Assembly: GCA_038087875.1 (NCBI GenBank)
Contig: CM075988.1
Span: 27,778,001-27,842,000, forward strand
Source: Malacoraja senta
Lineage: Eukaryota
Length of the DNA stretch: 64,000 bases
Direction: 5' to 3'
The notes under the pieces are model-generated. The model was not told the origin of the DNA and ran no database searches. It was given only the letters and a program-made list of their open reading frames with translations. This document shows, one piece after another, positions 306 to 52,345 of this stretch. The translations under genes and the position numbers were made by a program. How positions within the stretch are numbered: position 1 is the stretch's first letter; each line of letters begins with the position of its first letter.

Positions 306-1164
306 TCCTGGGCTCCATGGCCAAATTAACTCTAAAGGATAGTGAGGTAAATATTGATGGGAAATTCATCTGTCTGGTTTTAACAATGTAGTCAAGTTCC
401 TGCATTGTTTTCAGGCTACAAACGTATTCCATTTATTTCAAAAGCATTTATTTGGTCAGCTATATCATCAACAGATGATATGGCTGACCAAATGCTACAT
501 ATCAATGATTTGGATGAAAATATCGAAGGCTTGATTAGTAAGTTTGCCGATGACACAAAAGTGGGTGATATTGTAGATAACAAAGATGGTTGTCAAAAAT
601 TACAGTAGGATCATAAACAGTTAGGCAATTGGGCTGAGGGAATTGTTAATGGAGTTTAATGTAGTTACAGTGTCCTCCATAATGTTTGGCACAAAGACCC
701 ATCATTTATTTATTTATCTCTGTACTCTGCAATTTGAGATTTGTAATAGAAAAAAAACATGTTGTTACAGTGCACATTGTCAGATTTTAATAAAGGCAAT
801 TTGCATGCAATGACTGCTTGAAGTTTGCAATTCATGGACATCACCAGTTCCTGGGTGTCTTCTCTGGTGATGCTCTGCCTGGCCTGTATTGCAGCCATCA
901 TTAGCTTATGCTTGTTTTGGGGGCTAGTCCCCTTCAGTTTTCTCTTCAGCATATAAAAGGCATGCTCATTTGGGTTCTGATCGGGTGATTGACTTGGCCA
1001 CTCAAGAATTGACCACTTTTTAGCTTTGAAAAACTCCTTTGTTGCTTTAGCAGTATGTTTGGGATCATTGTCTTGTTGTAGAATGAACCACCGGCCAATG
1101 AGTTTTGAGGCATTTGTTTGAACTTGAGCTAATAGGATGTGTCCATACACTTCAGAATTCCTAA

Positions 1165-1580
1165 AGGGGCTGTCCCACTGCGGCGACCTAATCTGCGAGT
1201 TTAGAAGAGTTTGTCCTCGACTCAAACTCGCAGCATGGTCGACACGTGGTCCTAGGAGGTCCTATGAGGTCACTGGAACTCTCCTTCATGCTCGAGGGAA
1301 GTTCCTGTATACTCACGGCCTCAGCTAGGTTGCGGAAAATTTGTCAGCATGTTGAAAAATTTTCAGCGAGTAAAAACTGGTCGACATGGTTCTTTAACTC
1401 GTAGTGCAGTGGAGTGAGGTCGCTATGTAGTTACAGGCAGTCGAGGGCAGCCGTAGGCAATCTCCTTCGCTGACCAGGCATTTTAATTGGCTCATTGGAG
1501 TTTTCAGGACCAAGGAAAACCGACCGGTAGGTTAAATACCCGCTAAACTTTATTAAACGTTGTCTGACTTCTTAAAAGTG
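1165..1580. mobile_element. PIF/Harbinger-type MITE, right end missing
   Basis: TAA|aggggctgtcccactg start interrupts the Tc1 transposase; no matching right TIR. Confidence 0.75.
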
Positions 1581-2447
1581 TCTCCCCCCCTTCACCCCCC
1601 TTCTCTCCCCCCTTCTCTCCTCCCCTTCTCTCTCCCCCTTCTCTCCCCCCCTTCTCTCCCCCCCTTCTCTCTCCCCCTTCTCTCTCCCCCTCTCTCTCCC
1701 CCTTCTCTCTCCCCCCTTCTCTCTCCCCCTTCTCTCTCCCCCCTTCTCTCTCCCCCCTCTCTCTCCCCCCTTCTCTCTCCCCCCTTCTCTCTCCCCCCTT
1801 CTCTCTCCCCCTTCTCTCTCCCCCCTTCTCTCTCCCCCTTTTTCTCCCCCCCTTTCTCTCCCCCCCTTTCTCTCCCCCCCTCTCTCCCCCTCTCTCCCCC
1901 CCCTTCTCTCCCCCCCTTCTCTCCCCCCCCTTCTCTCCCCCCCCTTCTCTCCCCCCCCTTCTCTCCCCCCCCTTCTCTCCCCCCCCTTCTCTCCCCCCCC
2001 TTCTCTCCCCCCCCTTCTCTCCCCCCCCTTCTCTCCCCCCCCTTCTCTCCCCCCCCTTCTCTCCCCCCCCTTCTCTCCCCCCCTTTCTCCCCCCCTTCTC
2101 TCCCCCCCCCTTCTCCCCCCCCCCTTCTCTCCCCCCCCTTCTCTCCCCCCCCTTCTCTCCCCCCCTTCTCTCTCCCCCCTTCTCTCTCCCCCCTTCTCTC
2201 TCCCCCCCTTCTCTCTCCCCCCCTTCTCTCTCCCCCCCTTCTCTCTCCCCCCCTTCTCTCTCCCCCCCTTCTCTCTCCCCCCCTTCTCTCTCCCCCCCTT
2301 CTCTCTCCCCCCCTTCTCTCTCCCCCCCTTCTCTCTCCCCCCCCTTCTCTCTCCCCCCCCTTCTCTCTCCCCCCCCTTCTCTCTCCCCCCCCCTTCTCTC
2401 TCCCCCACCCTTCTCTCTCCCCCACCCTTCTCTCCCCCTCCCCCCTT
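1581..2447. repeat. ~870-bp polypyrimidine/polypurine (C,T) low-complexity tandem repeat
   Basis: Almost only C/T on the + strand; units such as cccccccttctct(ct). Confidence 0.97.
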
Positions 2448-2499
2448 GTACAGCAATAAAAGTTTCCAAAGGTGATGGAAAGACTGGAGGAAAGACTAA

Positions 2500-2696
2500 A
2501 GGGCCTGTCCCACTTGGGCGTTATTTGCGCGTCATGTACGCGACATCATTTACGCGACACGATGCACGACGCGCGTGTAACACGCGCATGGTGCATGGTG
2601 AGACGTGGTGGCATAAGCAGTGACGCACAGCGCGCGGTGCCCCAAGATTTTGGGATTCTCCTGACGCACAAATGACGCCCAAGTGGGACAGGCCCT
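2500..2696. mobile_element. PIF/Harbinger-type MITE (197 bp), TAA TSD
   Basis: TAA|agggcctgtcccacttgggcg ... cgcccaagtgggacaggccct|TAA. Confidence 0.93.
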
Positions 2697-4582
2697 TAAG
2701 TGCTGAGAGCTCTCTTATACCTGCATTAACGAGGCAATTAAACACACCTGTGCAATTACAAACTCCTGTGAAGCCATGTGTCCCAAACATTATGGTGCCC
2801 TGAAATGGGTGGACTATGTATAAGCAAAGCTGTAATTTCTACATGGTGAGACCAAAATGTATAAAAATGGCCTTTATTGAAATCTGACATGTGCACTTTA
2901 ACCACACATGATTTTTTTCTATTACAAATCTCAAATTGTCGAGTACAGAGGCAAATAAAGAAATGATGGGTCTTTGTCTTATGGAGGGCACTGTAAGTGT
3001 AAGGTGTTACATTTTGGGAATGGCAGTGAATGGCAGGATTCTATGGAGTTGTTGTAAAGCAGAGGGATCTAGGAGTGCAGATAGATAATTCTTTGAATGG
3101 CATCACAGGTAGGGTGGTCAAGAAGAGATATCGGCACATTACTCTTCATCAGTCAGGGTATGAGTATAGAAGTATAGGGGGTGGGTAGTTGAGGCAGGTA
3201 CTTTTACAACACTTAAAAGACATTTGGACAGGTACATGGGGAGGAAAGTTTTAGAGGGATATGGGGCAAACACGGGGACTAGTGTCGATTGGTTAATGGG
3301 TCGGCATGGGCAAGTTGGGCTGAATGGCCTGCTTCCATGCTGTGTGACTTTTTGTTCAAAAAGACATTTGCTCCTAATTTCCTGGTTTATTGCAGCCAGA
3401 GTGCGTGCCACTTGGTGTTCATTTTTGCGCCTGATAAGTGAGCTTGACACACTAATCTTGTGCCGATCTCTGACACTTAACAAATTAGATCTAACACCTG
3501 TATTCTTTTGTAACTATAGATGCGAATAACATTTTGCCTGGGTTTATTGTGATTCGATTAGTTTTTTAAAACTCGAGACTAAAACAACTTAAAATTATTC
3601 AACACCGCTGACAAAATGCATGCACTCCCAAGAGTTAATGGTGAAGGGGAAATCTTTGTAACTTATGCTTTTAAATAGAAAAAAAAACCTTTTTCCTTTT
3701 TGTACTTTTAGATGCTTCTTCAAGTGCATCTAATTTTATTTAATATTTTGGCATGTTTTAATGAATTCTCACACTGTGAGGAGATACTAAAGAATAATAT
3801 GAGAGGGCAATGTCAGTATCGGGTTCCGAATGCCCTTGTGGAATTTGGGTGCTTTCCTGATGCAGTCCTGCTGTTGACATGAGCATTGACTCTGGATGTT
3901 CCCATAAGCACTGGTTACTGAAGCATGTCAGTTAGTGAAATACTACTTAACCATACTTGTACTTCTGTTGCAAAAAAATTTGCTGGTGTCATTACAAAAA
4001 TATATTCACACATTCATTTGCGTGCAATATATGGAAACATTTCCAATTGACCATGCCTATCATATGGTTGTGGTTTTCTTTTATTTTATCAATTACCAGT
4101 GTTACAAACAGGCTGTGTCATGCCTATATTTTAACAATTATGAATGGACAATTTTAAAATTACTTGTATATCCTTGTTGGTTTGGAAGACTCTTGGTGTT
4201 CTTATGTAGCTTTTAATATTTCAGTGAAAATACTAAATTTTTATGCAGAAACATGAAACTGAAATAATGTTCTAGATTTATTAGTGATTTAATTCCATGT
4301 TTGGATTTCTAAGGGCAACAAAGTGGTTTGTGAAGGATGCTGTTCAGAGATTAAATTATTTAGCCCTCAAAGCATTCAGTTTCAATGTTTTTCTATTTAA
4401 AAAAAAAAGAAAATTACAGATTGCCAGCCATTGTTTTGGGAGATGAGCTATTTTTTATTTTCTCAGAGGAAATTATTGCTGTGTTTGTTTATCATAAGGC
4501 TAAGTTTAGAAACCACAATTTGCACTCCTTTCAACTTCTGACTTGCCAACGTGAATCAACAAAGTCATACTTTTGGAAACTA

Positions 4583-7500
4583 TCTGCCAAACCTATAAGA
4601 CTTTTCCAAATTACAAAATAAGAGCACTTTGAATTTGGGGATAAACCGCATAAACTTTTGGCTCGCCAGCTAAAAAAAAAAGAAAAGGAACATACTATAC
4701 CAAAGATCAAATCAGATAAAGGAGAATTATTAACAACACCGAAGGATATTAATAAAAGATTTGCGCAATTTTATGAGAATTTGCATACATCTAAAACGAC
4801 AATTGATTCCAATAATATCACAACGTTTTTGGATACCTGTAATCTTCCAAAGTTAGAGCTGAAGGAACAAGAGGAACTGGGTGCACAAATCTCAATTAAG
4901 GAATTAGAAGATACAATAAACTCACTAAAGAATGGAAAAACACCAGGCCCTGACGGATTTACTAATGAATTTTATAAAAGCTTTTATGATAAAATAATAC
5001 CAAGATTATAAAAAATGTACCAATATGCTTTTAAAAAACGAATACTACCTGATACATTAGCGGAATCAACGATTACACTAATACCTAAGAAAAACAAAGA
5101 TTTAGAAGAACCTGGTTCATATAGAGCTATAGCATTGTTAAACACAGATCAAAAAATATTAGCGAAAACATTAGCTAGAAGATTAAGTAAATACATTAGT
5201 AAATTAATAAACCCAGATCAGACGGGGTTTATCCCTAAGAGATACTCATCTAACAATATGAGACGTCTACTCAACATAATGCACTCACACAAATCTGAAG
5301 ATCAAGAATTATCAATTATTTTGCTGGATGCTGAAAAAGCATTTGATCAAGTAGAATGGAATTATATGGACAAAGTATTACAAAAATTTCAACTGGGGGA
5401 GAATTTTATTCTATGGATCAAGTTACTATATAACAAACCTACAGCTAGAATACTAACTAATAACATATCCTCGAAATTCCAACTATCAAGGGGAAATAGA
5501 CAAGGATGCTCATCACCACAGCTGTTTGCTCTCATTATTGAACCGCTAGCAGAAAAAAATTAGAATACACCCTGATATCCATGGATATAATACTAAAGAC
5601 TCATATAATAAAATATCTTTATACGCGGATGATATATTACTGTACATTACAAAACCTCAAATCACTATACCAAATATATTAAATTTAATTGAAGACTTTG
5701 GATCTTTTTCTGGATATAGAATAAATTGGAATAAAAGTGAAATTATGTCAATAAAACCGAAAGATTCAACACATCTTTTAAAATTCCCTTTTAAAATAGC
5801 TACAGAAAAATTTAAATACTTGGGACTCGAAATTACCAGAACATATCAAGGTATGTTTAGGGCAAATTTTGACCCCCTACTTAATAAATTAAACACACTA
5901 ATTAAATTCTGGAAAACGCTCCCGATGTCTTTAATAGGCCGAATAAATGCAATAAAAATGATCTTTCTACCACAAATTTTATACCTATTTCAATCAATTC
6001 CTATATACTTACCAAAGAAGTTTAAAAAAAAACTCGACTCAGATATCACTCATTTTATATGGGACTATAAATCACATAGAATACAAAAAACTCATCTGAA
6101 TAAACCTAAAGTATTAGGGGGTTTAGCACTACCTCATTTTATGTATTATTATTGGTCAGTAAATATTAAAAATATGATTCAACTGATGGATAACTCCGCC
6201 CAGCAAGTGGACTGGATTGTAATGGAGAAAGAGGATTGCTCCTCTGGAAACATTGGAGCGATCCTCCTTTCTCCAATGAAATTGAATAACATAAATTATA
6301 ATAAGAACCCAATTATTCATAGTACAATCCGAATTTGGAAACAAATAAAACAAAATTTAAAATTAAGAAATGTATCACTTTTATTACCTATAGTTAATAA
6401 CCCTTCGTTTAATCCTATTATAGATAAAGCTTTTACACATTGGGATAGACTAGGAATTAAAACGCTTGGTGACTTGTATGAACATGAAAAATTACTTTCA
6501 TTTCAACAATTACAAATAAAATATAAACTCGGAAATAATCAATGTTTTAAATATTTTCAAATATGCGACTATTTGAAAAAATATACAAAAGATCATTATA
6601 ATAACCCAGTAGATGTATTGGACGAGGCAATGCAGATAAAAGCGGAATCAGCAAACTTAATATCATATTTGTATAATATTATCTTAAATGTACAAATACC
6701 ATCTACGGAGGGTATCAGAAGAGACGGAACAAGAGTTAGCTATTAAAATTTCAAAGGAAAGTTGGAATGAATACTTATTAAACGTGCATAAATGCTCGAT
6801 TAATGTAAGACACACTTTAATACAATTTAAAATTTTACATAGATTATATTATTCGAAAACTAAAATTCATAACATTTTCCCAAAGGTATCATCTATTTGT
6901 GATAAATGTCAATCCCAAGAAGCTACTATAGCGCACTCATTTGTTTTCTGTACAAAAATTCAAAAATTTTGGAATGAAATTTTTGAAATCTTTACAGTTA
7001 TTTAAAACAAGACTGATACCCAAAGCAGAATTGATTATCTTCGGAATAACGGAAGATGGTCCAGAACTAAATGTGTTTCAAAAGAAACTAATGGACTATG
7101 GGTTAATAACTGGAAAAAAGCTAATTCTAAAATTTTGGAAGAAGGCTCCAATACCAACTATAAATATGTGGATTTCAAATATGTTTGAAACATTACACCT
7201 AGAAGAGATAAGACTCCTCCTAGCAGGTAAACCAGATCACTTCCACCTGACGTGGTCTGCATTTATAGAATTATTACAAATATAGGGTGCAAAAGTACTT
7301 AAAAAAAAAAAAAAGTGAGGTCAGGTAAGGGGGGATGATAGTTGAAGAGTTGGTATGTCCCATTTACGTAATGCTCATAAAAATATTTGTTTCTCTCTTT
7401 TTCCTCTTTCTCTTTCTCTTTCTTTTCCAGGGCCTATTTCTTAACTCTTTTTCTTTTGTTTTTAATTTTGCTCTTATAGGGTCTTTGTCCTTTTTTGTTG

Positions 7501-7682
7501 TCACATTTTCTACACTTTCACTTTTTCCTTCACTTTCTTCTTTCTTTCAATCTTTTCCTTTTCTAGTGTAAAAAATAAATGGAGTACATTAATTGTAAGA
7601 AGATATAAATGACGAGTACTAATGTATGCGGTTGTAATGTAATGTACTTCTAATAAATAAAAATTAAAACAAAAACAAAAAA
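4583..7682 (+). mobile_element. 5'-truncated L1-clade LINE (ORF2 RT + CCHC, disrupted), 16-bp TSD
   Basis: GKTPGPDGF, SYRAIALLNTDQKILAK, LDAEKAFD, RGNRQG, YADD, CDKC..H....C motifs. T-rich 3'UTR, AATAAA and A-tail. TSD atacttttggaaacta at 4567-4582 and 7683-7698. Several frameshifts and stops. Confidence 0.96.
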
Positions 7683-8366
7683 ATACTTTTGGAAACTACA
7701 AGATTCCCATTTTTGATTCGTAGTCGTAATGGGTTGAGATTTAAAAGTGTAAAGTAAAATAAAATGTTTGGTGCTGTAGAAATGATAAATAACACTTTAC
7801 CTGTGTGAAGTGTTACAGGTTTACAGTACATCATCCTGGTATATTCTGCAAAGCTGATTATTTTGCTGAGCAAGTAATGGACGATGTGATGATCAAAGCA
7901 TTCTATAGATAACTATTGTATCTTGTTTGAATTATATGCTGAACCAGTAATTTAGAGGCATTGTCAAAGACTGCAATTTTTTCCATGAGGTAGAGATAAA
8001 ACATTCCACCCACTTCTGAGCACAGCTGGAATAAACGAGTTTGGTATTCCGAAAAACGCAAGGAATCATGGGATTTGTCAAATGTCATTCGAGAACAAAG
8101 AAGCGATCGGGGATGCCTGGTAGCGGGGGAGAGTGGGGTGTAACAGCGGGAGAGAGGGGGCAGATGTGTGTGGGAGACGGAGGGAGAGACTGGACCGGCG
8201 GTGAGAGAAGGGGGGTGAAAGACGTGCGTGGGGAGACAGAGAGAGGTTTCAGTTAGACAGACAGCCACTGGTAAAGCCATGGCTCGTTGCTTCTAGGAGA
8301 GTCGCGAAAATGTCCTTAATCGAGAAAATGCAACTTCAGAACCCCGAGATTTCCGCGGGCGCAAGA

Positions 8367-9423: not shown

Positions 9424-9962
9424 AAGGCCTGTCTCACGAGTCTGCGGTCATTGGCGGCGAAAGGAAGAATCTACCGCTCCTGGGCCGCCATAGACCGCGC
9501 ACTCGGTCAAACGCCCACCGCCGGGGCCGTGCGGCGTTGTTCCCAACACTGCACGGTGCTAAAATAAAACCATCACTGTTAAAAAATATGTTCCTACCGC
9601 ACAGCCGCCGCCAGTGCGGCACGAGCGCCGTGCGTCGAACTTGCACCGCCACAGCCTCCGCCAGTGAGGCACGTGTGCGGCACGGCCGCCGCCACAGCCG
9701 CCGCTAGTGAGGCGCGTGTGCGGCACGGCCACCGCCACAGCCACCGCCAGTGAGGCACGACCGCCGCCAGTGAGGCACGTGTGCGGCACGGGCACAGCCA
9801 CAGCCCCGCGATCTGAATGCCGAAACGGCAAGCTCGTGGAACCGGCCGTACTTGGCCCCCCGCGCAGCATCCGTGCGGCGCTCTCGTGGTTGCCGTGCGG
9901 TCCTCTCTTCCAGCGACGCCGCGCTTCACCGCCAACAACCGCAAACCCGTGGGACAGAGCCT
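9424..9962. mobile_element. PIF/Harbinger-type GC-rich MITE, TTA TSD
   Basis: TTA|aaggcctgtctcacg ... cgtgggacagagcct|TTA. Internal gccgccagtgaggcacgtgtgcggcacg repeats. Splits a Penelope-derived short element. Confidence 0.9.
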
Positions 9963-10696
9963 TTAGACACAAAATGTTAGAGTAATTCAGCCGCTGAGAA
10001 TGTTTATCTCCAGTGACCTATGACCTGGGCATGCACATTTGAAATACCGAAATCGCTTATATTGCACATTAGATTTTCAGCCATATTATTGTAGCTCGTC
10101 TTCACTGTATGTGATATGTTTAAATTTTGGACTTTCTGATTTAAATCTCAAGCATTTTTCTTGCGGTAAGGGAATACCTACTCAAAGGAAGATAAATATA
10201 ATAAGTGAGACATTATATAACATATTTGTAAAAAAATAGAGATTTGAATCACTTTCTTTCTTCTATGCATTTATATCAGAACTGGATTTTTCTCTACCTA
10301 TTTATAATAGAACTGGATTTTAGTTCTAACTGTGGAATTTAATTCCTAGTTATGAATTCAACCCCTAATTGTCTTGTGTGATGACTAGTTGTGGTGGGTG
10401 ATTCATATATAATATAAACACAGTGGTTTCATATCATTAGAAGGTCATTGCTTGAATCGAGGGTCTGACGTGAGTGACATATTCAGAACGTCCCTCAAAA
10501 TGTTTCTTTCTTTTTATTGCTCCCTACCACTATTAAGTGCAGTGGAATCACTATTAACTATCAGCATTAGGAATAAGCTATTGACAATACGAGTACATCA
10601 ATTGTTAAAGTAAAATAGTGTAACTGCAAAATTCCTTTAAATGGAACCATTTCTAACTCTACAAATTACATTTTGAGCACTGAACTAATCTTGGTA

Positions 10697-11017: not shown

Positions 11018-11629
11018 AGATTTGAGAAAATAGAGGTACTGTGTAAATACACATACACATTGCCCAAACACACTCAAATTAGTATTTTAATAGACAACAA
11101 TCAAAGTACCGTGCAATATATTTGGTGCATTTTATTGTCCATTGCATATCTGAGTCTCTCCATTCTTTGTTATCCTGCATAATTTAGAGTCAGTAATAAA
11201 TAGACCTTTGCCTCTTCAGTGTGAGAGAGATTTCCCTTGAGAAATGCTGCATAAATATTTTTATTTCCTCTCCCAACTTCACGATGTAAACTGGAGTTCA
11301 CCCGTGAGTTCTCATGGTCTTGGGTCAACTTTCTCAGATTTCCCTTACTGTCCAGTACACACAATATCCTCTCCCTCACACTCTCCTGTTCTTTCTCTCT
11401 CTTGCCCTTTCTGCCCTCAGCCTTTGGGCCCTATCCTCGGCCAGCCCCCTCCACTTGCCGAACCTTCCCCCCTCGACGAACCCTTGCTGACCTATCCCGC
11501 TGCACTCTCCCCATATCCCTTGATGCTTTTTGCATCCTATCCAAAACTACTTATTTTACGAATACTCATCACTCTTCATGATAACGAATTTCACACTTCC
11601 GCCAAGCCCTGAGTGAATCTTGTCCTGTA

Positions 11630-12050
11630 CCCTGAGACAGTGACTCATTGTTTTAGACATCCCACTTGTGGGAAACAACCTCACCATGTCCAGTTAGTCT
11701 GGCTTGCCAAAATGTGGTCATCTTCAATTTGAACCTCCCATTTTTCTCAATACCAGTGAACACAAACCTAATGGACAGAATCTCCTAATCAACCTAATCT
11801 CCTCGTATGGTAGTTCCTCAATCATGGTAATCAGTCTGGCGAACCTTTCCATTCCATTTTTAATAAATATACAGCGTTGAGTAATGAGATAAAAAACTGT
11901 ATACAGTACTACAAATGTGGCCTCACAGATGACCTGTGTCATTGTTGCAAGATATACCTGTTCCTGATGCACATAAATTAACTTGCTACGAAGACTGGTG
12001 TATCATTGATACATTTACTGCTTGCCTCACCTGCATATTTCCTTTAGATA
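11630..12050 (-). mobile_element. Highly degenerate CR1 remnant
   Basis: GLCSLVLRKMGG-like CR1 C-terminal remnant; gtatacagtactacaaatgtggcctcac. Confidence 0.55.
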
Positions 12051-13719
12051 GATAGATAGGTTTTTATAGTGTATCTGTTTCTGTGATTAATTTCATCATA
12101 CAGTGGACAGAAGAATAAAATGTCACTTCTTGCCCATCAAATGCCAACTATTTCTAATAATTTGAGGCTGTTTTTCAACTGAAATAAATTAACCAAATCT
12201 TTGTGATGTTGATTAGATTATTGGATGCATATTCCTAAGGCCTGATTTGTGATCAGGGATGCAAGCACAAGCCTCACTTGATAGAGAATTAAATTCTATT
12301 ATATTAACTCAATCTGGAATAAAAACGATAACTTATGTCAGTCATGATGGCATGAAACTGCTGGACTAAACAAAAAGTTTCAATAATGCCCGATACACTC
12401 TTTGCCTTGTCTGCCTTTTCTGTGTTGGCTCTTTACTGCCCTCTGTAAAGGCCTAATAAACTGCTGGGTTGTCAAGAGGGCAATTCACCATTTCATTTCT
12501 AAGGACAACGAAGGTTTAAGGACTAAATACCTGGGATGCTCACAGTGATGCCCTGCAAATAGATTAAAAACAAAATTTGATGAGTATAGGGGAATGTTGT
12601 TGACTTCACGTGCAGTTTATTTTAAGAAATGTGGATGTGTGCAAATCTAAAATCTTGAAAATTTAACATGAAACATTAACCCTGTTATTCCAGCAGATGT
12701 TGCCTGCTCTGCTGAGTATTTATATTTTATGTTTTGACCTAATTTGTCATCTTAGCTGCAAAATATTTTATATATAAAAATGTATTAAATTTTGAGGTTT
12801 CTTTTATGGAGATCATTTGAACTATATGGCATCATTTTCACTTATTCTCAATCTTGCATTGAAGAACAAAGGTGAAGCCACTGTAATTTAAAGTCAGCAG
12901 CAGGTTTGTGTAATGAAATTGCAATAAAGCAGAGTCCTGAAACTTGACTTTGAAGTGGCGCAAGTCTTTCTTCTGTCTGATGTAGTTTTCCATTTAAGTG
13001 AATGTCTGTCAGAGCATCAAATTGCCTGGGGATGCTGCACACTTTATTTTATATTGCAATGTTATTGTCTTGAAATGATGTGCATTGTTCAATTACAAGC
13101 TTTAAGACCACAACAAGATTGATTAAAGGCAGAAAACGAGTGTAAAATTAGATATTTTTTTTTTGCATATCATTATCCTTATTGGTAAAGATTAATGTTT
13201 AGAAGAACTCTATTTCTTCCAAGTTTAAAAATATATAGTTTACAAATTATACAGGATATTTTAAGTGTTCTTCTAGGTATTTCATGAATCCTCTTTCATT
13301 TATCCCTGAAAAGGACCTGGGAAATTTCAGCTGGCAGTTCCCCGATGTTCCAATAAAACCATATTCAAAAATGCCTACAGGGTCTTGTTAGTACAACTTT
13401 ATCCAATGAGTCAAAATGAAAATGTAATTAAAGTCTTTGCTAGCACCATCTAATTATTCAGTGTTGGCAACAGATACATGGTTTACTGGAATGCAAATGT
13501 GATTGGAAAAATAGATTTTTGAAAGGGCAATGTAATAAAATTTCACTAGCTGCACTATAAAGGCTTCCCCATAAACGGCTGACTTTTATCTTTATTTTTG
13601 ATAATGTAGAAGGCTATTATCATCGCACAAACCTTCAATGATCAATTATTCTCTCCTATAGTATAGGCGGTATAATATTTTTTACCTACAGTTACTAAGT
13701 ATTTAAATTGACTCTATGC

Positions 13720-18873: not shown

Positions 18874-20364
18874 GTAATTTACCGTATGATTTTCTCCATA
18901 CAAGGCATTATTTTAAGCCCACTGTCTTAATTGTTCCACTCCCTGTTGTTGTCATAATATATTGTCTGTTTAAAGTAGTTGATTAATACTCTTAAAGAGA
19001 TTTCTGGATTGTATTTTAACAGAAGTTTCAGGCACAATGTTCTATGTTTAGCCATCCTCAGCCATTTAATCATTTTATACCTTTCCTTTAATGAACAAAT
19101 GAAAGAGTCACTTTTCACCAGTTCACCTGGTTGTCATGTATTATCTTTGTGGTTCTGGTGAAAAGGGTTTGACTCGTTTCTCTGTGCAATAAGAAATGTA
19201 TTGCTGAGTCTTTGATCAGTGGAGTATTTTTCTGCCTTCAGATATTTAGATTTAGAGTTGTCTTCCATACATTACCATTTCCCCCATGTAACGTAAGCAA
19301 CAAAGTCAATATACCTTATTGTTCTCACATGTCCTGGATTAATTCTTCTCTCTCCACCGTTTGAAGATTTTGTTTATGTGAGTTTTTGAACCAGTTAGAC
19401 AAACTTGAATGTTTATTTGGTTGAAATGTAAGATCACAAACAATACTACAAATATACTTTTTCAGAGATCTTGTGAAGTGAAGCATTACTTCCTTGTTTT
19501 TGTAATCCATCCTTCTGACAGTAAAACCAAGCAGTTTTTTAGTGGCAACTGACTATGGTTGTTTTACTGAATTTATAAATCCTGTTGTGTGTTTGAACTG
19601 TTTAATGGAATGGAAATTGTAATTTACTATGGTCTGAAATATGTTGTGTTGGCATGAATGCAAACCTGTAATTGGAAAAACAAATGTTGAACACTAATTA
19701 ACAACTGTTCTTGCAGTGGTGCTAAAAATAGGGGAATATAGTTCAGTTGTGATAGAGTCTCAAACATCACGCTGCCTGGCTTGCTGTTTGTTTCCAACGT
19801 TGCCTATTTGTGAATACAAATTTTTTGCTAGTCAAGATATGACGTGATTGGTGCTTGCATGAGATGCGAAAAAGAGGCAAGAAAACATGTACGCATGGAC
19901 AGATTGATAGAGAATGTAAGAGAATCATATAGTGAAAAGATAAAATGCAAAAACAATGGAGATCCTTGTAATGAAATAAATTAGTTTGAGACAAATGTTG
20001 GAGGAAGAGAGGATGTGATGCCAGAGTTTCATGTGATGGTGTCAATTTAATCTATAGAGAAGCTGTTTCAAACAATACAGGCTGTTCCCGGGTTATGAAC
20101 CCTCATTTGCATACGCCGTTATGAATGTATGAGTTCCCAAAACATTATTGAATTCAAAGGTTTGACATATGTACATATGCTTGATCCTTGAATGGCTGAA
20201 TGATGTTGCTGAATGATGAAAAACTGGATGGGTTCAGTCAAGCAACTTGAATCTTAACTCACTGTGCATAAAGTGTTATTCTTGGCTCCTTGCTGTGGGT
20301 GGCTGAAAGCATGTGGAGAAGCCTAATAATTATTTAACTTCACAAAATTAATCTGAGTCACAAC

Positions 20365-20400
20365 CAAAGATACTAGAGGAGCTCCGCTATATAATCTTTG
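20365..20400. mobile_element. 36-bp P-element-like remnant or footprint, 8-bp TSD
   Basis: gtcacaac|caaagatactagaggag-ctccgctatataatctttg|gtcacaac; CA..TG inverted termini. Confidence 0.75.
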
Positions 20401-21956
20401 GTCACAACTGTTTTCACAGATTAAAAAACATTAAAACGACCTTGGCCTTGTATGGTTAAATCAATTCTATGAAGTAAATCAGTTCAAGAGCTTGTCAAAT
20501 ATGTAAAATCATAACTCTTAAAAGTGGCAGAACACAGATTAGTGTTTGCATTTCTGTGCAATTTCTCCATAAAAAGATTGTCCAGAGACCCATTTTAGTT
20601 ATATAAATAAACTAAATAAAGATGTAGCAACTGCAGTGGGATGGATGGTATATTTTGAAGTACCAGTGAACGATTGAAAGATGACAGATTAGGTTAATCT
20701 AGCCATTTAAGCCACTGATCTTTTTTTAATCAATACTACAAGTTCTTTAAATACATCTGTAACTTAGGGAGAAACAGTGCAAATTTGCTATGATTGGCTT
20801 TGAAGAAAAAATCCTGGTGAAAACGAGTTGTGCTATTTGAAGTAGAAAGTAGATTTTTGGAATCAATTTTAGGTGGTTAAAGAGGAAGGTATTTTTAGTT
20901 GACCCAAGTTAATTTTTTGCAGCTGAAGATTTTTGTTCTTTTTTATAGCAACAATGGTTAAAGCAATCACACTGTTTACTGCAAATTGTACAGATGTGAT
21001 TTATGTTCCATTAAGACCTTGGAAGATAGCATCTGACCTTAATTATTGACAATGATATGAAATGACGTGTTAAGCAATTATTTCATTTTTTAATTCTTAG
21101 TACACTTGTAACTAAACAGTGACTAAATGATTTCCGTAATTAAAGTTCATGAGTGGCAGTGATGGAGAAATAAACGTGATCCATTTACTCTTGTGTGAAT
21201 CATTATTACAAGGCTCCACCTAACCTATCCAGTTGAAATAATTTGTCCACATAAACACAGCTGATGGCTACATTGTAAATGTCAATCACAGTGCATGCAA
21301 ATATACCATTAAGAAAATAGTGGCATTATTTTTGATACAGCCATTCTATTAGCGGAGAGTTTATGGGCTTCAATAAAGAATATCATGTTGAGAGTTCGAC
21401 CTGTTTTTGACCTTGCAAGAGATGCAACATTAATGATGAGGATGGGATGTTACAGCAAGATAATGATCCATTGTGAGGAAAATAGAGAGTGTAGTGCTAT
21501 AAGTTAAACAGTGATGATCGTAGGCAGTGGGTATGAGTTGATCTTTTTAGTAAGAGGATAGGACCAGTCTACGCCTGGAACAAGGACTATTCGACATAAC
21601 CAACAAAAAGACAGGTATAACTGCGGTTCACGTGAGTGCCCATGGCTACACCTTTAACTTGGAGAAAGAGAAGTTGTTGAGGGTGAGGATAAATTCTGCT
21701 GTGGGGAGGAGAGTGTTAGGAGAGGGAAATTGGTTGGGTCTGTTCAAGGAAGAAACTGAAGGTCTTGATAAGGCCCTGGTGGGGGATGGTGTAGAGGGAC
21801 TGGACATCCATGGTAAAGATGTGTGACTGGCGAGCCTTAAAACTAAAAGTTATTAAAGATTTGAAGTGTGTGTGAGGTGTCTTGCACGTAGGTGGGAAGG
21901 GATTGTACAAGAGGTTGGGGGGGGGGGGGAATAGGATAGAATCAATGTATGTGGAG

Positions 21957-24900
21957 CCGTCAGGGTAGGCAAGGTAGGCACTGCCTACCCTGACTAAAAT
22001 TATTATTATTTTTTTTTTAAATTTTTATTTATTAGAAGTACATTACATTACAACCACATACATTAATACTCGTCATTTATATCTTCTTACAATTAATGTA
22101 CTCCCTTTATTTTTTATTTTTTTACACTAGAAAAAGAAAAGATTGAAAGCAAGAAGAAAGTGAAGGAAAAAGTGCAAGTGTAGAAAAGTGTAGAAAATGT
22201 AACAACAAAAAAGGACGAAGACCCTATAAGAGCGAAATTAAAAACAAAAAGAAAAAGAGTTAAGAAATAGGCCCTAAGAAAAGAAAAGAGAAAGAAAAAA
22301 AGAGAAACAAATGTTTTTTTTTGAGCATCACGTAAATAGGACATACCAACTCTTCAACTATCATCCCCCCTTACCTGACCTCAATTTTTTATTTTTTTTA
22401 AAGTACTTTTGCACCCTATGTAATAATTCTATAAATGCAGACCACGTCAGGTGGAAGTGATCTGGTTTACCTGCTAGGAGGAGTCTTATCTCTTCTAGGT
22501 GTAATGTTTCAAACATATTTGAAATCCACATATTTATAGTTGGTATTGGAGCCTTCTTCCAAAATTTTAGAATTAGATTTTTTCCAGTTATTAACCCATA
22601 TTCCATTAATTTCTTTTGAAATACATTTAGTTCTGGATCATCCGTTATTCCGAAGATAATCCATTCTGCTTTGGGTATCGGTCTTGTTTTAAATAACTTT
22701 GTAAAGATTTCAAAAATTTCATTCCAAAATTTTTGAATTTTTGTACAGAAGACAAATGAGTGCGCTATAGTTGCTTCTTGGGATTGACATTTATCACAAA
22801 TAGATGATACGTTTGGGAAAATTTTATGAATTTTAGTTTTCGAATAATATAATCTATGTAAAATTTTAAATTGTATTAAAGTGTGTCTTACATTAATCGA
22901 GCATTTATGCACGTTTAATAAGTATTCATTCCAACTTTCCTTTGAAATTTTAATAGCTAACTCTTGTTCCCAGTCTCTTCTGATACCCTCCGTAGGTGGT
23001 ATTTGTACATTTAAAATAATATTATACAAATATGATATTAAGTTTGCTGATTCCGCTTTTATCTGCATTGCCTCGTCCAATACATCTACTGGATTATTAT
23101 AATGATCTTTTGTATATTTTTTCAAATAGTCGCATATTTGAAAGTATTTAAAATATTGATTATTTCCGAGTTTATATTTTATTTGTAATTGTTGAAATGA
23201 AAGTAATTTTCCAGTTTCATACAAGTCACCAAGCGTTTTAATTCCTAGTCTATCCCATTGTGTATAAGCTTTATCTATAATAGAAGGACTAAACGAAGGG
23301 TTATTGACTGTAGGTAATAAAAGTGATAAGTTTCTTAATTTTAAATTTTGTTTTATTTGTTTCCAAATACGGATTGTACTATGAATAATTGGGTTCTTAT
23401 TATAGTTTATGTTATTCAGTTTCATTGGAGAGAGGAGGATCGCTCCAATGTTTCTAGAGGAGCAATCCTCTTTCTCCATTACAATCCAGTCTACTTGCTG
23501 GGCGGAGTTATCCATCAGTTGAATCATGTTTTTAATATTTACTGACCAATAATAATACATAAAATTAGGTAGTGCTAGACCCCCCAATACTTTAGGTTTA
23601 TTCAGATGGGTTTTTTGTATTCTATGTGATTTATAGTCCCATATAAAATTAGTGATATCTGAGTCGAGTTTTTTAAAAAACTTCTTAGGTAAGTATATAG
23701 GAATTGATTGAAATAGGTATAAAATTTGTGGTAAAAAGATCATTTTTATTGCGTTTATTCGGCCTATTAAAGACATCGGGAGCGTTTTCCAGAATTTAAT
23801 TAATGTATTCAGTTTATTAAGTAGGGGGTCAAAATTTGCCCTGAACATACCTTGATATGTTCTGGTAATTTCAATTCCCAAATATTTAAATTTTTCTGTA
23901 GCTATTTTAAAAGGGAATTTTAAAAGATGTGTTGAATCTTTCGGTTTTATTGACATAATTTCACTTTTATTCCAATTTATTCTATATCCAGAAAAAGATC
24001 CGAAGTCTTCAATTAAATTTAATATATTTGGTATAGTGATTTGAGGTTTTGTAATATACAATAATATATCATCCGCGTATAAAGATATTTTATTATATGA
24101 GTCTTTAGTATTATATCCATGAATATCAGGGTGTATTCTAATTTTTTCTGCTAGCGGTTCAATAATGAGAGCAAACAGCTGTGGTGATAATGAGCATCCT
24201 TGTCTATTTCCCCTTGATAGTTGAAATTTCGAGGATAATATGTTATTAGTAAGTATTCTAGCTGTAGGTTTGTTATATAGTAACTTAATCCATAAAATAA
24301 AATTCTCTCCCAGTTGAAATTTTTGTAATACTTTATCCATATAATTCCATTCTACTTGATCAAATGACTAAAATTATAACATAGTAATTACTAAATATAA
24401 ATAGTAAAGGCATGGGAGAATTATGCCTACCTAAGAGATCGATCGATCTCTTAGGTAGGCATAATTCTCTGTGCCTTTCATCCGCAGCGCTTGTAACACG
24501 GGAGGCTCTGTGCAGCCCACGTGCCGTCAGCGCTGCCTGAAGCCGTCAATTTCAATCGGGGCTGAAGGCAGATGAAATTCTGCCTTTGCAGCACTGCGCA
24601 TACGCAGCGCTAGTTTCTTGGCGGGGTTTTCAAATATGGATTGGCATTATTTTAAGTGTATCTTAGGAAACAGGGAGAGAAGAATGGAGCTCGTGTACCA
24701 ATGATGTGGTAAGTACATTTCTTGGTGATGTTTTTAAATACCGTATTTCCCGGGGTGTGGGGGTGGGGGGAGAGCTCCGTTCACAGCATTTGGGGAGTCT
24801 GGCCTGGGATAAAGTTGCGGGGAGGGCACGAATGTTGTGAAGGAGGGGATCGGGATAATGCCACTTGCGACGCTCCTTGCACGGAGGCGTGCAATGCCAC

Positions 24901-43804: not shown

Positions 43805-44387
43805 AAGGCCTGTCTCACGAGTCTGTGGTCATTGGCGGCGAAACGGGAAGAATCTGCCACCATAGACCGCGCACTCGTGAGAACGTACAATTCCGGGGCC
43901 GTGCGGCGGTGTTCCCAACACCGCACGGTGCTAAAATAAAACCGACAATGTTGAAAACTATAATCTTACCGCACAACCTCCACCAGTGATGCACGAGTGC
44001 GGCACGGCCGCCCGCACGGGCCGCCGCCAGTGTGGCTCGAGCGCCGTGCGTCAAACCTCCACTGCCACAGCCTCCGCCAGTGAGGCACGTGTGCGGCACG
44101 GCCGCAGGCACAGCCACCGCTACAGCGCCGCGATCAGGACGGCCGCCGCCACAGCCGCCGCTCGTGAGTCACGTGCGGCGGGCCGACGTCATCGCAGTCG
44201 GCCCTCCCTTTTTTTTACTTACCGCAAGCACGTGGGACCAGCGGTATTTGAATTACTCGGACCCCGCGCAGCATCCGTGCGGTGCTCCAGTGGATAGGCT
44301 CGGCGCTCTCGCCGTTGCCGTGCGGTCCCCGCTACCGGCGACGCCGCGCTTCTCCGCCGATGACCGCAAACAGGTAAGACAGAGCCT
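43805..44387. mobile_element. PIF/Harbinger-type MITE, same family as 9424-9962, TAA TSD
   Basis: TAA|aaggcctgtctcacgagtctg ... taagacagagcct|TAA. Confidence 0.9.
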
Positions 44388-46849
44388 TAATTGGTTGAGC
44401 CAAGTTGGTGAGACCTCTGTCTTTAATGTTCTCTGCATCAAAAATATTGTTGATCATTTAGAGATAAAATAACAAAGGTTTTAATTATTTCCCAAAAGTT
44501 GGCTTCATCATTGTGAAGGAAAACTTAGTGTGCATTCTTAGGCATTTAATTGCATGCACTAATTGGGCATAGTTTATCCAGATTTGTAAAGCAAATGTGT
44601 GAAGGTTATTTGTAATCAGTGTCATATGTTTGAACCTTGTAAAAGCATTTGATGATGAGAAAAAACAAGCTAGCATTCATTTAGTGCCCTTTGTAATTTG
44701 ACAGTGAAATAACTATTATAATTATTATGATTAGTGTAGTTACTTTAACGTGGGAAGCGCAGAATGAATTTGCTCATAGCAACGTTGAACAGATTTGATA
44801 ATGGCCAGATAATTTGCTTAAGTAGCGTGGGCTCCCTATTTTTGAGAGCCTTTGGATAATAGATTAATGAGGGAAGTTAGAGAAAGAAAGGTAAAGGGCA
44901 ATAAAGCTGTGAAATGCATTTCAGAGCTGTTGCTGAAATCTGAACCTTGAAACCAAATGGGGAATACTAGATATCTAGCAGATCTGGTCTGTGGAAAGAG
45001 AAAAACAGAAGTAATATTTTTATGGATATCCTTTGCAAACTGTGCATCCTTAGCCACACAATATCGGACATATTCCCTTTGTCCTGACCGACCTCCACGG
45101 TTGCTCTCTCCAACTTGAAACAAACTTGGAGGCGCAAGAGGCTGCATATGTAGGGTATGTAGATCAGAAAAAGAACCGTAGAGCAAAACATGTAGATGAA
45201 AACATCTATGTAGAGCAAAATGTAGAGCAAATAAAGAACTGGTAGAACTTAGATTGTCCTTGCTTCTCCCGATATTGCAAAATAACTTGGTGTTTCATGT
45301 GACTTTTTGAAGTAGTTTCCAGCAGAATAAACCTGATGTAATTCAGTACAACATGAAAAACAAGGAACTGCAGCTTTTTGTTGAGAAATGACCAGAGGAC
45401 TGAAATGCTAAGCATTTTTTTTTCCCACGACTTGCAGTGTATTTTTAAAATTTTCTGTATTTTGTCATATTTCTAGCATCTGCTGTTTCTTGATTTTTAT
45501 ATTGTACTGAATCGTATCAAATTTAACCTGCTGGAAACTGCTAAAAATAAGTCCCAAGAAACATTTGATTATTTTTGCAATCCAGGAGAAGCAAGGATGC
45601 TTTCAAATACATTTAATTTGCAGCCCAGGTGTTTGAGACTTCATCTGTAGATGGCATTCCTTTGTGATTCTAGATCGGCAATACTTTTGACATTTTCTAT
45701 TGGGCAACAATCAGGCAGGTTGATTTATTTTTGTTACTGTGTTAATGATTGAGCCCAATAGAGTCTACATTTTCGTAAACTGGCTGAGTATTGGATAGAG
45801 AGTCTTTAGTAAAATAGAATGCCCTATTACTCTATGTTCTTCACCAGTTATAAAAAAAATCACAGATACAATGCGCACTTAGCGGTAAAGAGTGAACCGG
45901 CAGGATGTGTGAAAACGCCAGTGCCTCCTCTCGAGACAAGGGTGAACTGCAGGGATAAGCTTTAAATCACCGGCCTCCTCCTTTGGGACCAGGATTGAGC
46001 TCAGCACGAGCACGAGATCACAAATGCCTCTTCACATGTGCCTGACGATGAGGGCAAGCGCCCCGACTCAGACCTGGATTTTTTTGTCACTATAAATAAA
46101 CAACATTATGTGAGTTTACTCAATTGCGAGTGTGGGTGTAGTCATTGGTGGCCTGATGTCATCCCTGAAGGTACATCCCATTGGATGGCTGTTTCATTTT
46201 TTTTTCCTTGGTGCAAATAACTGTCTCCACAAAAACTGTGGAGGGAAATTACATAATTAGATGCCCACCTTTTCAAATGTGGAAGGAAGCCCAAGATGCT
46301 AGAATGTGTAACATCAGTGGTTTCTTGCTAATTAATGATATGAATGTTACAGTTCATATTGATCAAAGAGGCATTAATTTCAATGAATGGGAAATTGCAT
46401 AGGATGTGGACTGAGCAAAGGGTCGTAATGACACTTCTAAATTCTACGTGTAGTTATTTTCATCCATATAAGAGAGGAAATGATTTCTTTTGCACAATTA
46501 AATATATGCTAATTTATATCATGTTCTATTTAGGAACAAAAAAACATAACATTTTCACCTTTATTATTTTGGTCTCTGATCAAATCAACTCTCTTTACCC
46601 AAGAGAGTGAGGTTGGGAATGCAATGAGTGAATGTCATAATATAATTTAACTCGAGGTGAGTGAGGCAGAAAGCTTTCTTTAATATTCTAGTTCATAACA
46701 ACAAAAGAGAAGGCTATTCAGCCCAGGAAGTCAATGTTGGTTGCCAAAAAACTTTTATTAATCCTTTCTCCCAGTTGTTTCCCTCCAACCTTTTCTCCCT
46801 CTCATGCCCATCTCTATTAATTCTCCTACCACCCACCATTCTTATAGTG

Positions 46850-51864: not shown

Positions 51865-52345
51865 AATTTAATTTAGAGATACAGCGTGGAAATAGGTCCT
51901 TCAGCTTATAGAATCCGCATCGTAAGCTAATTCAAAGTTATCCAAGTTTACACACCAGAGGCAATTTAGAGAAGCCAATTAACCTACAAACCTGAGGTAC
52001 ACAAAAATGCTGGAGAAACTCAGCGGGTGCAGCAGCATCTATGGAGCGAAGGAAATAGGTAACGTTTCGGGCCGAAACCCTTCCTCGGCCCGAAACGTTA
52101 CCTATTTCCTTCGCTCCATAGATGCTGCTGCACCCGCTGAGTTTCTCCAGCATTTTTGTGTACCTTCGATTTTCCAGCATCTGCAGTTCCTTCTTTAACA
52201 CAACAACCTACAAACCTGCATGTCTTTGGAATGTGGGAGGGAACCGGAGCACCTGGAGAAAACCACAGGGAAAACGTGCAAACTCCATGCAGATAGCAAC
52301 CACAGTCAGGATCGAACCTGGGTTTCTGGTGAAGCAATGTGAATG
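51865..52345 (-). mobile_element. HE1/V-type SINE split by a Penelope-derived hairpin insertion
   Basis: aagccaattaacctacaaacctg|...|catgtctttggaatgtgggagg, caggatcgaacctgggt. Confidence 0.85.
51995..52204. mobile_element. Inverted pair of Penelope-derived short elements, 14-bp TSD
   Basis: Perfect 81-bp arms (51995-52075, 52085-52165) with a 9-nt spacer. TSD aacctacaaacctg (51981-51994, 52205-52218). Confidence 0.9.

What the first reader, a model, noticed from the sequence alone, without database searches (positions are those of the whole stretch)
20357..20408. 36-bp P-element-like excision footprint between perfect 8-bp TSDs
Seen: gtcacaac | caaagatactagaggag (17 nt) + ctccgctatataatctttg (19 nt) | gtcacaac. 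Two inverted ends starting CAAAGAT are fused at gag/ctc with no body. Established: P-superfamily elements have CA..TG ends and 8-bp TSDs. Drosophila P transposase cuts with a 17-nt stagger, so end-joining repair typically leaves roughly 15-18 bp of each TIR between the TSDs. Inference: this is a scar of P-type (THAP9-related) excision, suggesting the same staggered chemistry operated in a cartilaginous fish germline.
Basis: partly seen in the sequence, partly recalled or inferred. Interest (0 to 1): 0.72.

Follow-up and report, generated by a model that had tools for sequence, protein, structure and literature searches.

The report
Probable transposon excision scar in skate
This 36-letter insert is a real, recent insertion and one of probably hundreds of near-identical ones in skate-like fish, most likely the scar left when a P-element-like jumping gene cut itself out, although the parent element has not been seen.

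Summary
Contigs of three related species (4-5% diverged) lack the insert at this site; two show the clean empty site with one copy of the 8-mer. So it is a lineage-specific insertion with an 8-bp target duplication. The 36-mer is a dispersed family in all four species laid, probably hundreds of copies in this genome, with one dominant junction, shorter variants (31-34 bp) and a 41-bp variant. Best reading (0.6): footprints of a P-type transposon whose staggered cut leaves both tips at the donor site, joined at a small palindromic microhomology. Fly P footprints also have a favoured junction (PMC2895639), so a dominant junction does not refute this. But 36 exceeds 17+17, so the stagger would be about 19-20 nt or more on one end, not the fly's 17. 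No parent element and no transposase could be found or tested, so P/THAP9 membership is unproven. Main rival: a self-mobile 36-bp mini-element (0.17). The scan noted the same kind of scar in another genome (e1-7810740).

The parts
20357..20364 (.). Left copy of the 8-bp target-site duplication (GTCACAAC)
   Evidence: single copy at the empty site of relatives A and B (table 5)
20365..20381 (+). Left arm, 17 nt (18-21 nt if the junction is a microhomology overlap); presumed tip of the parent element's left end
   Evidence: contigs from other loci diverge at 20357-20365 (table 7)
20382..20400 (-). Right arm, 19 nt (20-23 nt with overlap), inverted copy of the left arm with a 2-nt difference in length; presumed tip of the parent's right end
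   Evidence: contigs from other loci diverge at 20400-20404 (table 7)
20378..20385 (.). Central 8-bp palindrome where the arms meet; holds the candidate 2-8-nt self-complementary microhomology
20381..20388 (+). Two 3-nt direct repeats 5 nt apart; site of the recurrent 5-nt loss and 5-nt gain seen in other copies
   Evidence: table 4
20401..20408 (.). Right copy of the 8-bp target-site duplication

Best explanation
It is an excision footprint of a cut-and-paste transposon that works like the P element. Shown: after the split from relatives A and B something inserted here and duplicated 8 bp; what remains is two short inverted tips; the same unit occurs at many unrelated sites. Inferred: a longer element inserted; its transposase later cut one strand at each element end and the other strand about 19-20 nt or more inside it; the donor site kept both tips as 3' single-stranded tails; end joining annealed them at a small self-complementary motif at 20381-20382 (or the wider palindrome) and filled in. 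Repeating this at many loci gives one favoured 36-bp product and a tail of shorter ones. Inferred and untested: that the enzyme is a P/THAP9 transposase.
For: Empty orthologous site in 2 of 3 relatives laid, and no insert in the third. Family limits are sharp: 23 of 24 loose-end rows shown lie at 20357-20365 or 20400-20404, with mixed flanks (agreement 0.43-0.61 in the own-species run) (93 rows hidden). A second locus shows its own 8-letter word on both sides (relative B, table 5c), and a third is inferred. Of 11 listed contigs from other loci that span the unit, 5 are shorter by 2-5 nt, 6 ungapped, 0 longer (table 8; a selected list, 314 rows hidden). A 5-nt loss at 20381 recurs in 13 contigs (table 4). 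P transposase cuts 17 nt inside the element (PMC7776569 section 7) and leaves 17-nt 3' tails at the donor (PMC2895639). In flies the commonest short-microhomology junction is one 2-bp palindromic join: 14 of 27 such isolates, of 68 junctions in all, giving 30 bp. hAT, MULE and Transib make hairpins on the flank (PMC5499845), which would leave no element tips. A 36-bp unit has no room for P-type internal binding sites, which lie 9 and 21 bp inside 31-bp repeats in the fly.
Against: No longer element with these ends was seen: none in the window, only chance hits in viral, genome and metagenome collections, and the read-laying step could not show 17-19-nt matches. No transposase link. 36 bp exceeds the 34 bp that a 17-nt stagger allows without added bases. 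One length dominates more than in flies: only 5.4% of peak depth shows the 5-nt loss and 5.1% the 5-nt gain in the own-species run, and at most 0.1% in the three relatives. The 41-bp variant needs extra synthesis or later slippage, and slippage between the 3-nt repeats explains both 5-nt variants equally well. The first 11 bases match zebrafish Pdre2 at 5 and fly P at 3 positions (by eye, ends as printed). Zebrafish THAP9 in cell assays gave larger flanking deletions rather than neat footprints (PMC10983969). The target 8-mer fits the P core and the hobo motif equally, 5 of 8 each (motifs).
Confidence: 0.6

Rival explanations
1. The 36-mer is itself a mobile mini-element (two ends, no body) moved in trans by a transposase that makes 8-bp duplications; the length variants are later slippage or subfamilies.
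For: One dominant length in all four runs; copy load differs strongly by lineage (peak/background 3210, 1453, 512, 55); contigs 99% or more alike are 19 of 132 in the own species but 1 of 75, 0 of 104 and 0 of 23 in relatives; no parent seen. An all-TIR MITE of 78-80 bp, MADE1, was amplified and is a preferred substrate (PMC5224488).
Against: 36 bp is under half the size of MADE1. Pairing both ends of so short a duplex in one complex is hard to picture (inference from DNA stiffness, recalled). Under P chemistry two 17-nt staggered cuts would leave about 2 paired bases. All 5 gapped variants among the 11 listed spanning contigs are shorter. Lineage-specific letters are also expected if parent ends evolved.
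Confidence: 0.17
2. Remnant of a hAT, MULE or other 8-bp-TSD element, made by aborted gap repair or internal deletion at the same microhomology rather than by a deep staggered cut.
For: 8-bp duplications and the target motif do not separate P from hAT. hAT is present in all vertebrate lineages surveyed (PMC4350176). Aborted synthesis followed by end joining is a common repair outcome (PMC2895639).
Against: Flank-hairpin cleavage gives no reason for synthesis to stop 17-23 nt in from both ends at many loci; lengths should be broad. Both duplications are intact here.
Confidence: 0.13
3. One old scar was copied passively inside a larger repeat, and the apparent family is mostly that repeat; scattered copies are truncated or templated derivatives.
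For: A shared GC-rich flank recurs in loose ends of all four runs, with what looks like its own 8-bp duplication (table 7; last four upstream letters inferred). It must inflate summed depth. A contig-break model gives only tens to a few hundred exact independent copies.
Against: It cannot explain this locus, which has single-copy flanks, its own duplication and empty orthologs, nor the mixed flanks that start exactly at the unit's ends, nor the separate 8-bp duplication in relative B.
Confidence: 0.07
4. Chance or a one-off templated repair insertion.
For: The strand does not fold unusually well (z -1.36).
Against: 0.01 expected per window; multi-copy in 4 of 4 runs; arms occur nowhere else in the window within 3 mismatches except one chance-level hit.
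Confidence: 0.01

Closest known systems
Drosophila melanogaster P-element excision footprints (P(wa) junctions, PMC2895639 Table 1; mechanism PMC7776569)
   Same: Both 8-bp duplications kept, tips of both ends fused without body, CA..TG termini, a favoured junction at a short palindromic microhomology, shorter variants.
   Different: Modal length 36 bp against 30-32 bp; arms unequal (17/19 or 18/20) and imperfect; exceeds the 17+17 limit; terminal 11 bases match at 3 positions only; found fixed at many natural loci in a vertebrate; transposase unknown.
Zebrafish Pdre2 / THAP9 P-like elements (PMC10983969)
   Same: Vertebrate, 8-bp duplication, short inverted ends starting CA.
   Different: 13-bp perfect TIR matching at 5 of the first 11 bases; described copies are long internally deleted elements; excision in cells gave flanking deletions; no 36-bp footprint family in the passages seen.
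MADE1/MiHsmar1 MITE (PMC5224488)
   Same: A unit made almost only of two inverted ends, one length strongly amplified.
   Different: 78-80 bp, mariner family, perfect 36-37-bp ends, shown to be a transposase substrate; the present unit is 36 bp with 8-bp duplications and has no shown mobility.
hAT and MULE excision footprints (PMC5499845)
   Same: hAT also makes 8-bp duplications.
   Different: Cleavage leaves hairpins on the flank, so footprints consist of target DNA, not of element tips.

Membership tests
P superfamily (P, 1360, Galileo, THAP9-type) | 8-bp (or 7-bp) target-site duplication | tested here: met
   Empty ortholog with one 8-mer in relatives A and B; a second locus with its own 8-mer
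P superfamily (P, 1360, Galileo, THAP9-type) | Inverted ends beginning CA and ending TG | tested here: met
   shared with fly P and Pdre2 as printed; not specific to P (hAT overlap recalled, search gave nothing relevant)
P superfamily (P, 1360, Galileo, THAP9-type) | Repbase rule for non-autonomous elements: first 11 bases align with a known member, 1 mismatch allowed (PMC4455052) | tested here: inconclusive
   Fails against the 2 members whose ends I saw (5 of 11 Pdre2, 3 of 11 fly P); no repeat library was available for the other members
P superfamily (P, 1360, Galileo, THAP9-type) | Autonomous partner encoding a THAP + GTP-binding RNase H transposase | not testable with these tools
   No genome held; none in 120 window ORFs scanned; no query protein available from a tool
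P superfamily (P, 1360, Galileo, THAP9-type) | Internal transposase-binding sites and subterminal repeats | not testable with these tools
   Needs the parent; the 36-mer is too short to hold them
P-type excision footprint | Both element tips retained between two intact duplications | tested here: met
   (that the arms are element tips is inferred from sharp family limits)
P-type excision footprint | Length at most 17+17 = 34 bp without added bases (fly 17-nt stagger) | tested here: not met
   Modal unit is 36 bp and one arm is at least 19 nt
P-type excision footprint | Heterogeneous junctions with microhomology, skewed to shorter products | tested here: inconclusive
   31-34-bp and 41-bp variants exist, but one length dominates and slippage explains the 5-nt variants too
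P-type excision footprint | Longer parent with the same tips; a full allele at some orthologous or polymorphic site | not testable with these tools
   This site is empty, not full, in 3 of 3 relatives laid; 17-19-nt matches cannot be seen by read laying
MITE (self-mobile non-autonomous TIR element) | High copy number, uniform size, TIRs and TSD at each locus | tested here: met
   (copy number rough; duplications seen at 2 loci, inferred at a third)
MITE (self-mobile non-autonomous TIR element) | Copies descend from one another and can be excised and inserted by a transposase | not testable with these tools
   Needs all copies or an assay
hAT excision footprint | Footprint made of target-derived, hairpin-opened DNA with no element sequence | tested here: not met
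   The insert is absent from the empty site and is not an inverted copy of the flanks (mechanism)

The most novel reading that the evidence does not exclude
The 36-bp unit is mobile by itself: a two-ended, 8-bp-duplicating DNA element less than half the size of MADE1, amplified to hundreds of sites in some skate lineages, which would need a transposition route other than ordinary pairing of two duplex ends in cis.
Probability: 0.15. Interest if true: 0.85.

Novelty: new variant of a known kind. Interest (0 to 1): 0.5.

Why it matters
If the footprint reading holds, skate genomes carry a natural record of germline excisions by a P-like transposon in a vertebrate, and the scar lengths read out where the enzyme cuts. 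The 17-nt stagger is documented for the fly enzyme; whether vertebrate P/THAP9-type enzymes cut the same way is not settled in the papers I saw. A modal 36-bp scar with unequal arms ending at the same motif predicts a deeper or sequence-guided cut, which is directly testable. It would also point to a recently active vertebrate P-like family, and the small presence/absence markers could be of use in skate phylogeny. If instead the unit moves by itself, it would be far smaller than the smallest mobile TIR element I found cited. No function for the host is indicated.

Tried and rejected
Own genome: none held. Other copies or parent ends in the window: none. Collection scans for the arms: viral 0 and 6 loci, prokaryote genomes 3, metagenomes 4; 0 of these 13 loci had a partner end with a matching duplication; three read in full were host-like, archaeal-like or phage-like DNA without a transposase frame evident (only L004 was run through an ORF list). 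All treated as chance. Repeats at 9425-9965 and 43805-44385 contain a similar 7-mer but internally, not at an end. The shared GC-rich flank of other copies is not in the window. Pfam scans of 120 ORFs (20, 100; a selection, not every frame) found RT, Tc1-type DDE and LINE tail domains only. Rfam: 0 matches. Folding: not unusual. Target-motif comparison does not separate P from hAT, and the flanking three bases do not clearly follow the fly 14-bp rule (one site). Summed contig depth was not taken as a copy number. Literature: searches listed no paper on genome-wide natural P-type footprints in vertebrates or on this family; (terminal 7-mer as a word) and one search gave only irrelevant listings; PMC2233675 was irrelevant. 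The library lacks most subscription papers and Repbase/Dfam entries, and no supplements were read, so absence from print is not established.

Full report
Observation. The window holds identical 8-mers at 20357-20364 and 20401-20408 around a 36-bp insert. Its first and last 7 bases are perfect inverted repeats. Aligned with a 2-nt gap, the 17-nt and 19-nt arms agree at 15 of 17 positions and end at the same motif, which makes an 8-bp palindrome at 20378-20385; the junction can thus be read as 17+19 blunt or as 18+20, 19+21, 20+22 or 21+23 with overlap. The pattern (exact 8-bp direct repeat, 20-100-bp insert, 7-bp inverted ends) occurs twice in the window, once here and once in a microsatellite, against 0.01 per window in 200 shuffles. 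The surroundings are AT-rich DNA among LINE copies, a Tc1-like remnant and SINE-like repeats. No Rfam family matches. The named relatives of highest identity to a window LINE protein are from the little skate (61% and 68% over 61% and 49% of the query), which fits, weakly, a batoid host.

It is an insertion. No genome is held, so I used public runs. One search listed 21 runs; I laid 4: the own-species run and one each of organisms A, B and C, which differ from the window at 4.1, 4.3 and 5.1% of aligned letters. Single contigs of A and B skip exactly 44 nt, with 8 letters fitting either side: the empty site with one copy of the 8-mer. C skips 57 nt with one letter between: no insert, plus a small deletion of its own. 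So 3 of 3 relatives lack the insert and none holds a full element here. The own-species run may be the window's source and is not independent support for the locus.

It is a family. Depth over the insert rises to 3210, 512, 1453 and 55 times the flank depth in the own species, A, B and C. This is not a copy number: the tool warns against that, the depth comes mostly from overlapping pieces of about 31 letters, and counting 12 overlapping layers apart gives 267, 43, 121 and 5. A rough model of where the locus's own contigs break gives 28-220 exact independent copies as best estimates, with ranges from 3 to 792 depending on flank bias. 'Probably hundreds' is the safe statement. The limits are sharp: 23 of the 24 loose-end rows shown (93 hidden) fall at 20357-20365 or 20400-20404, and in the own species 25 contigs on each side have mixed flanks. 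One GC-rich flank recurs in all four runs, so one copy sits in a larger repeat that has itself multiplied; its flanks suggest its own 8-bp duplication (partly inferred). In B, a 38-letter spacer between two units opens and closes with the same 8-letter word, a second independent duplication (table 5c).

Junctions. One length dominates. In the own-species run a 5-nt loss at 20381 (13 contigs) carries 5.4% of peak depth and a 5-nt gain behind 20380 (2 contigs) 5.1%; in relatives at most 0.1%. Among the 11 listed contigs from other loci that span the unit, 5 are shorter by 2, 3, 4, 5 and 5 nt, 6 are ungapped and none is longer; this list is a selection (32 rows shown, 314 hidden) and favours variants. 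The two 5-nt variants sit on two 3-nt direct repeats 5 nt apart, so they may be alternative joins or later slippage.

Mechanism. P transposase cuts at the element's 3' ends and 17 nt inside on the other strand (PMC7776569, sections 6, 7, 9 read), leaving 17-nt 3' tails at the donor (PMC2895639, passages). Table 1 of that paper (seen in part) shows that end joining keeps both duplications and both tips, and that one 2-bp palindromic microhomology gives 14 of 27 short-microhomology isolates (68 junctions in all). A favoured junction is therefore expected and does not by itself mean a MITE. hAT, MULE and Transib put the hairpin on the flank (PMC5499845, passages), so their footprints hold no element tips. 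The anatomy here matches the P type, and I put this reading at 0.6. It departs from the fly in one testable way: 36 bp is more than 17+17, and one arm is at least 19 nt. Either the inner cut lies 19-20 nt or more from the end and the tails are trimmed to the microhomology, or the cut follows the motif at which both arms end.

What is missing. No parent and no transposase were seen. The window has no other end and no P, THAP or hAT domain in 120 ORFs. Collection scans gave 13 chance loci. Read laying cannot show 17-19-nt matches. The ends match zebrafish Pdre2 at 5 and fly P at 3 of the first 11 bases, short of the Repbase rule (PMC4455052, passages), though only two members could be compared. 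The target 8-mer fits the P core and hobo motif equally (PMC2577343, passages). Zebrafish THAP9 excision in cells gave larger flanking deletions (PMC10983969, passages), which does not favour neat footprints from that enzyme. So 'works like P excision' is likely; 'is a P/THAP9 element' is untested.

Rivals. A self-mobile 36-bp element (0.17) fits the uniform length and lineage-specific load; MADE1 shows that a 78-80-bp all-TIR element can amplify (PMC5224488, passages), but 36 bp is under half of that, and P-type cuts would leave about 2 paired bases. Aborted repair of a hAT-like element (0.13) lacks a reason for a fixed stop. Passive copying in a larger repeat (0.07) explains part of the depth but not this locus. 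Chance is excluded.

Novelty. P footprints are known from fly experiments. My searches (listings only unless cited above) showed no report of a natural genome-wide family of such scars in a vertebrate; the library is incomplete, holds no repeat databases, and I read no supplements. PMC4350176 and PMC3698922 (passages) added only background. Verdict: real, lineage-specific insertion; member of a dispersed 36-bp family in skate-like fish; most likely a P-type excision footprint with a deeper or motif-guided cut; new variant of a known kind; interest 0.5.

Noticed in passing
window 45180-45231: A 22-bp hairpin-like insert with CAT..ATG ends between 10-bp direct repeats, followed by a further partial copy; looks like a templated repair insertion or a scar of another family.
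   Followed up: no
table 7 (all four runs): One copy of the 36-mer lies inside a GC-rich larger repeat shared by all four species, apparently with its own 8-bp duplication; the repeat is unidentified and is not in the window.
   Followed up: partly
table 5c (run X2): Two units 38 letters apart with the same 8-mer at both ends of the spacer: a tandem duplication of a scar-bearing locus.
   Followed up: no
window 20360-20416 in relative C: Relative C lacks 13 more bases than the empty allele of A and B, including most of the target 8-mer; probably an independent deletion.
   Followed up: no
window 5340-7689 and 21996-24366: Two young copies of an L1-like LINE in opposite orientation, mostly 89-99% alike, with reverse transcriptase frames.
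   Followed up: partly
window 691-2977: Tc1-like element with 72-bp inverted repeats and a DDE fragment, interrupted by an 800-bp CT-rich array.
   Followed up: no
window 9425-9965 and 43805-44385: Two copies of a GC-rich repeat with an internal 43-bp tandem array; family not identified.
   Followed up: partly
window 51988-52172: 88-bp inverted duplication, 97% complementary, 9 nt apart, of a SINE-like sequence.
   Followed up: no
window 20110-20190: Degenerate repeat fragment with multi-copy depth in all four runs; resembles a pogo/Tigger-type end (recalled, untested).
   Followed up: no
window 11140-13061: 1.9-kb stretch with 7-bp CA..TG inverted ends between exact 8-bp direct repeats; at this distance chance is plausible.
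   Followed up: partly
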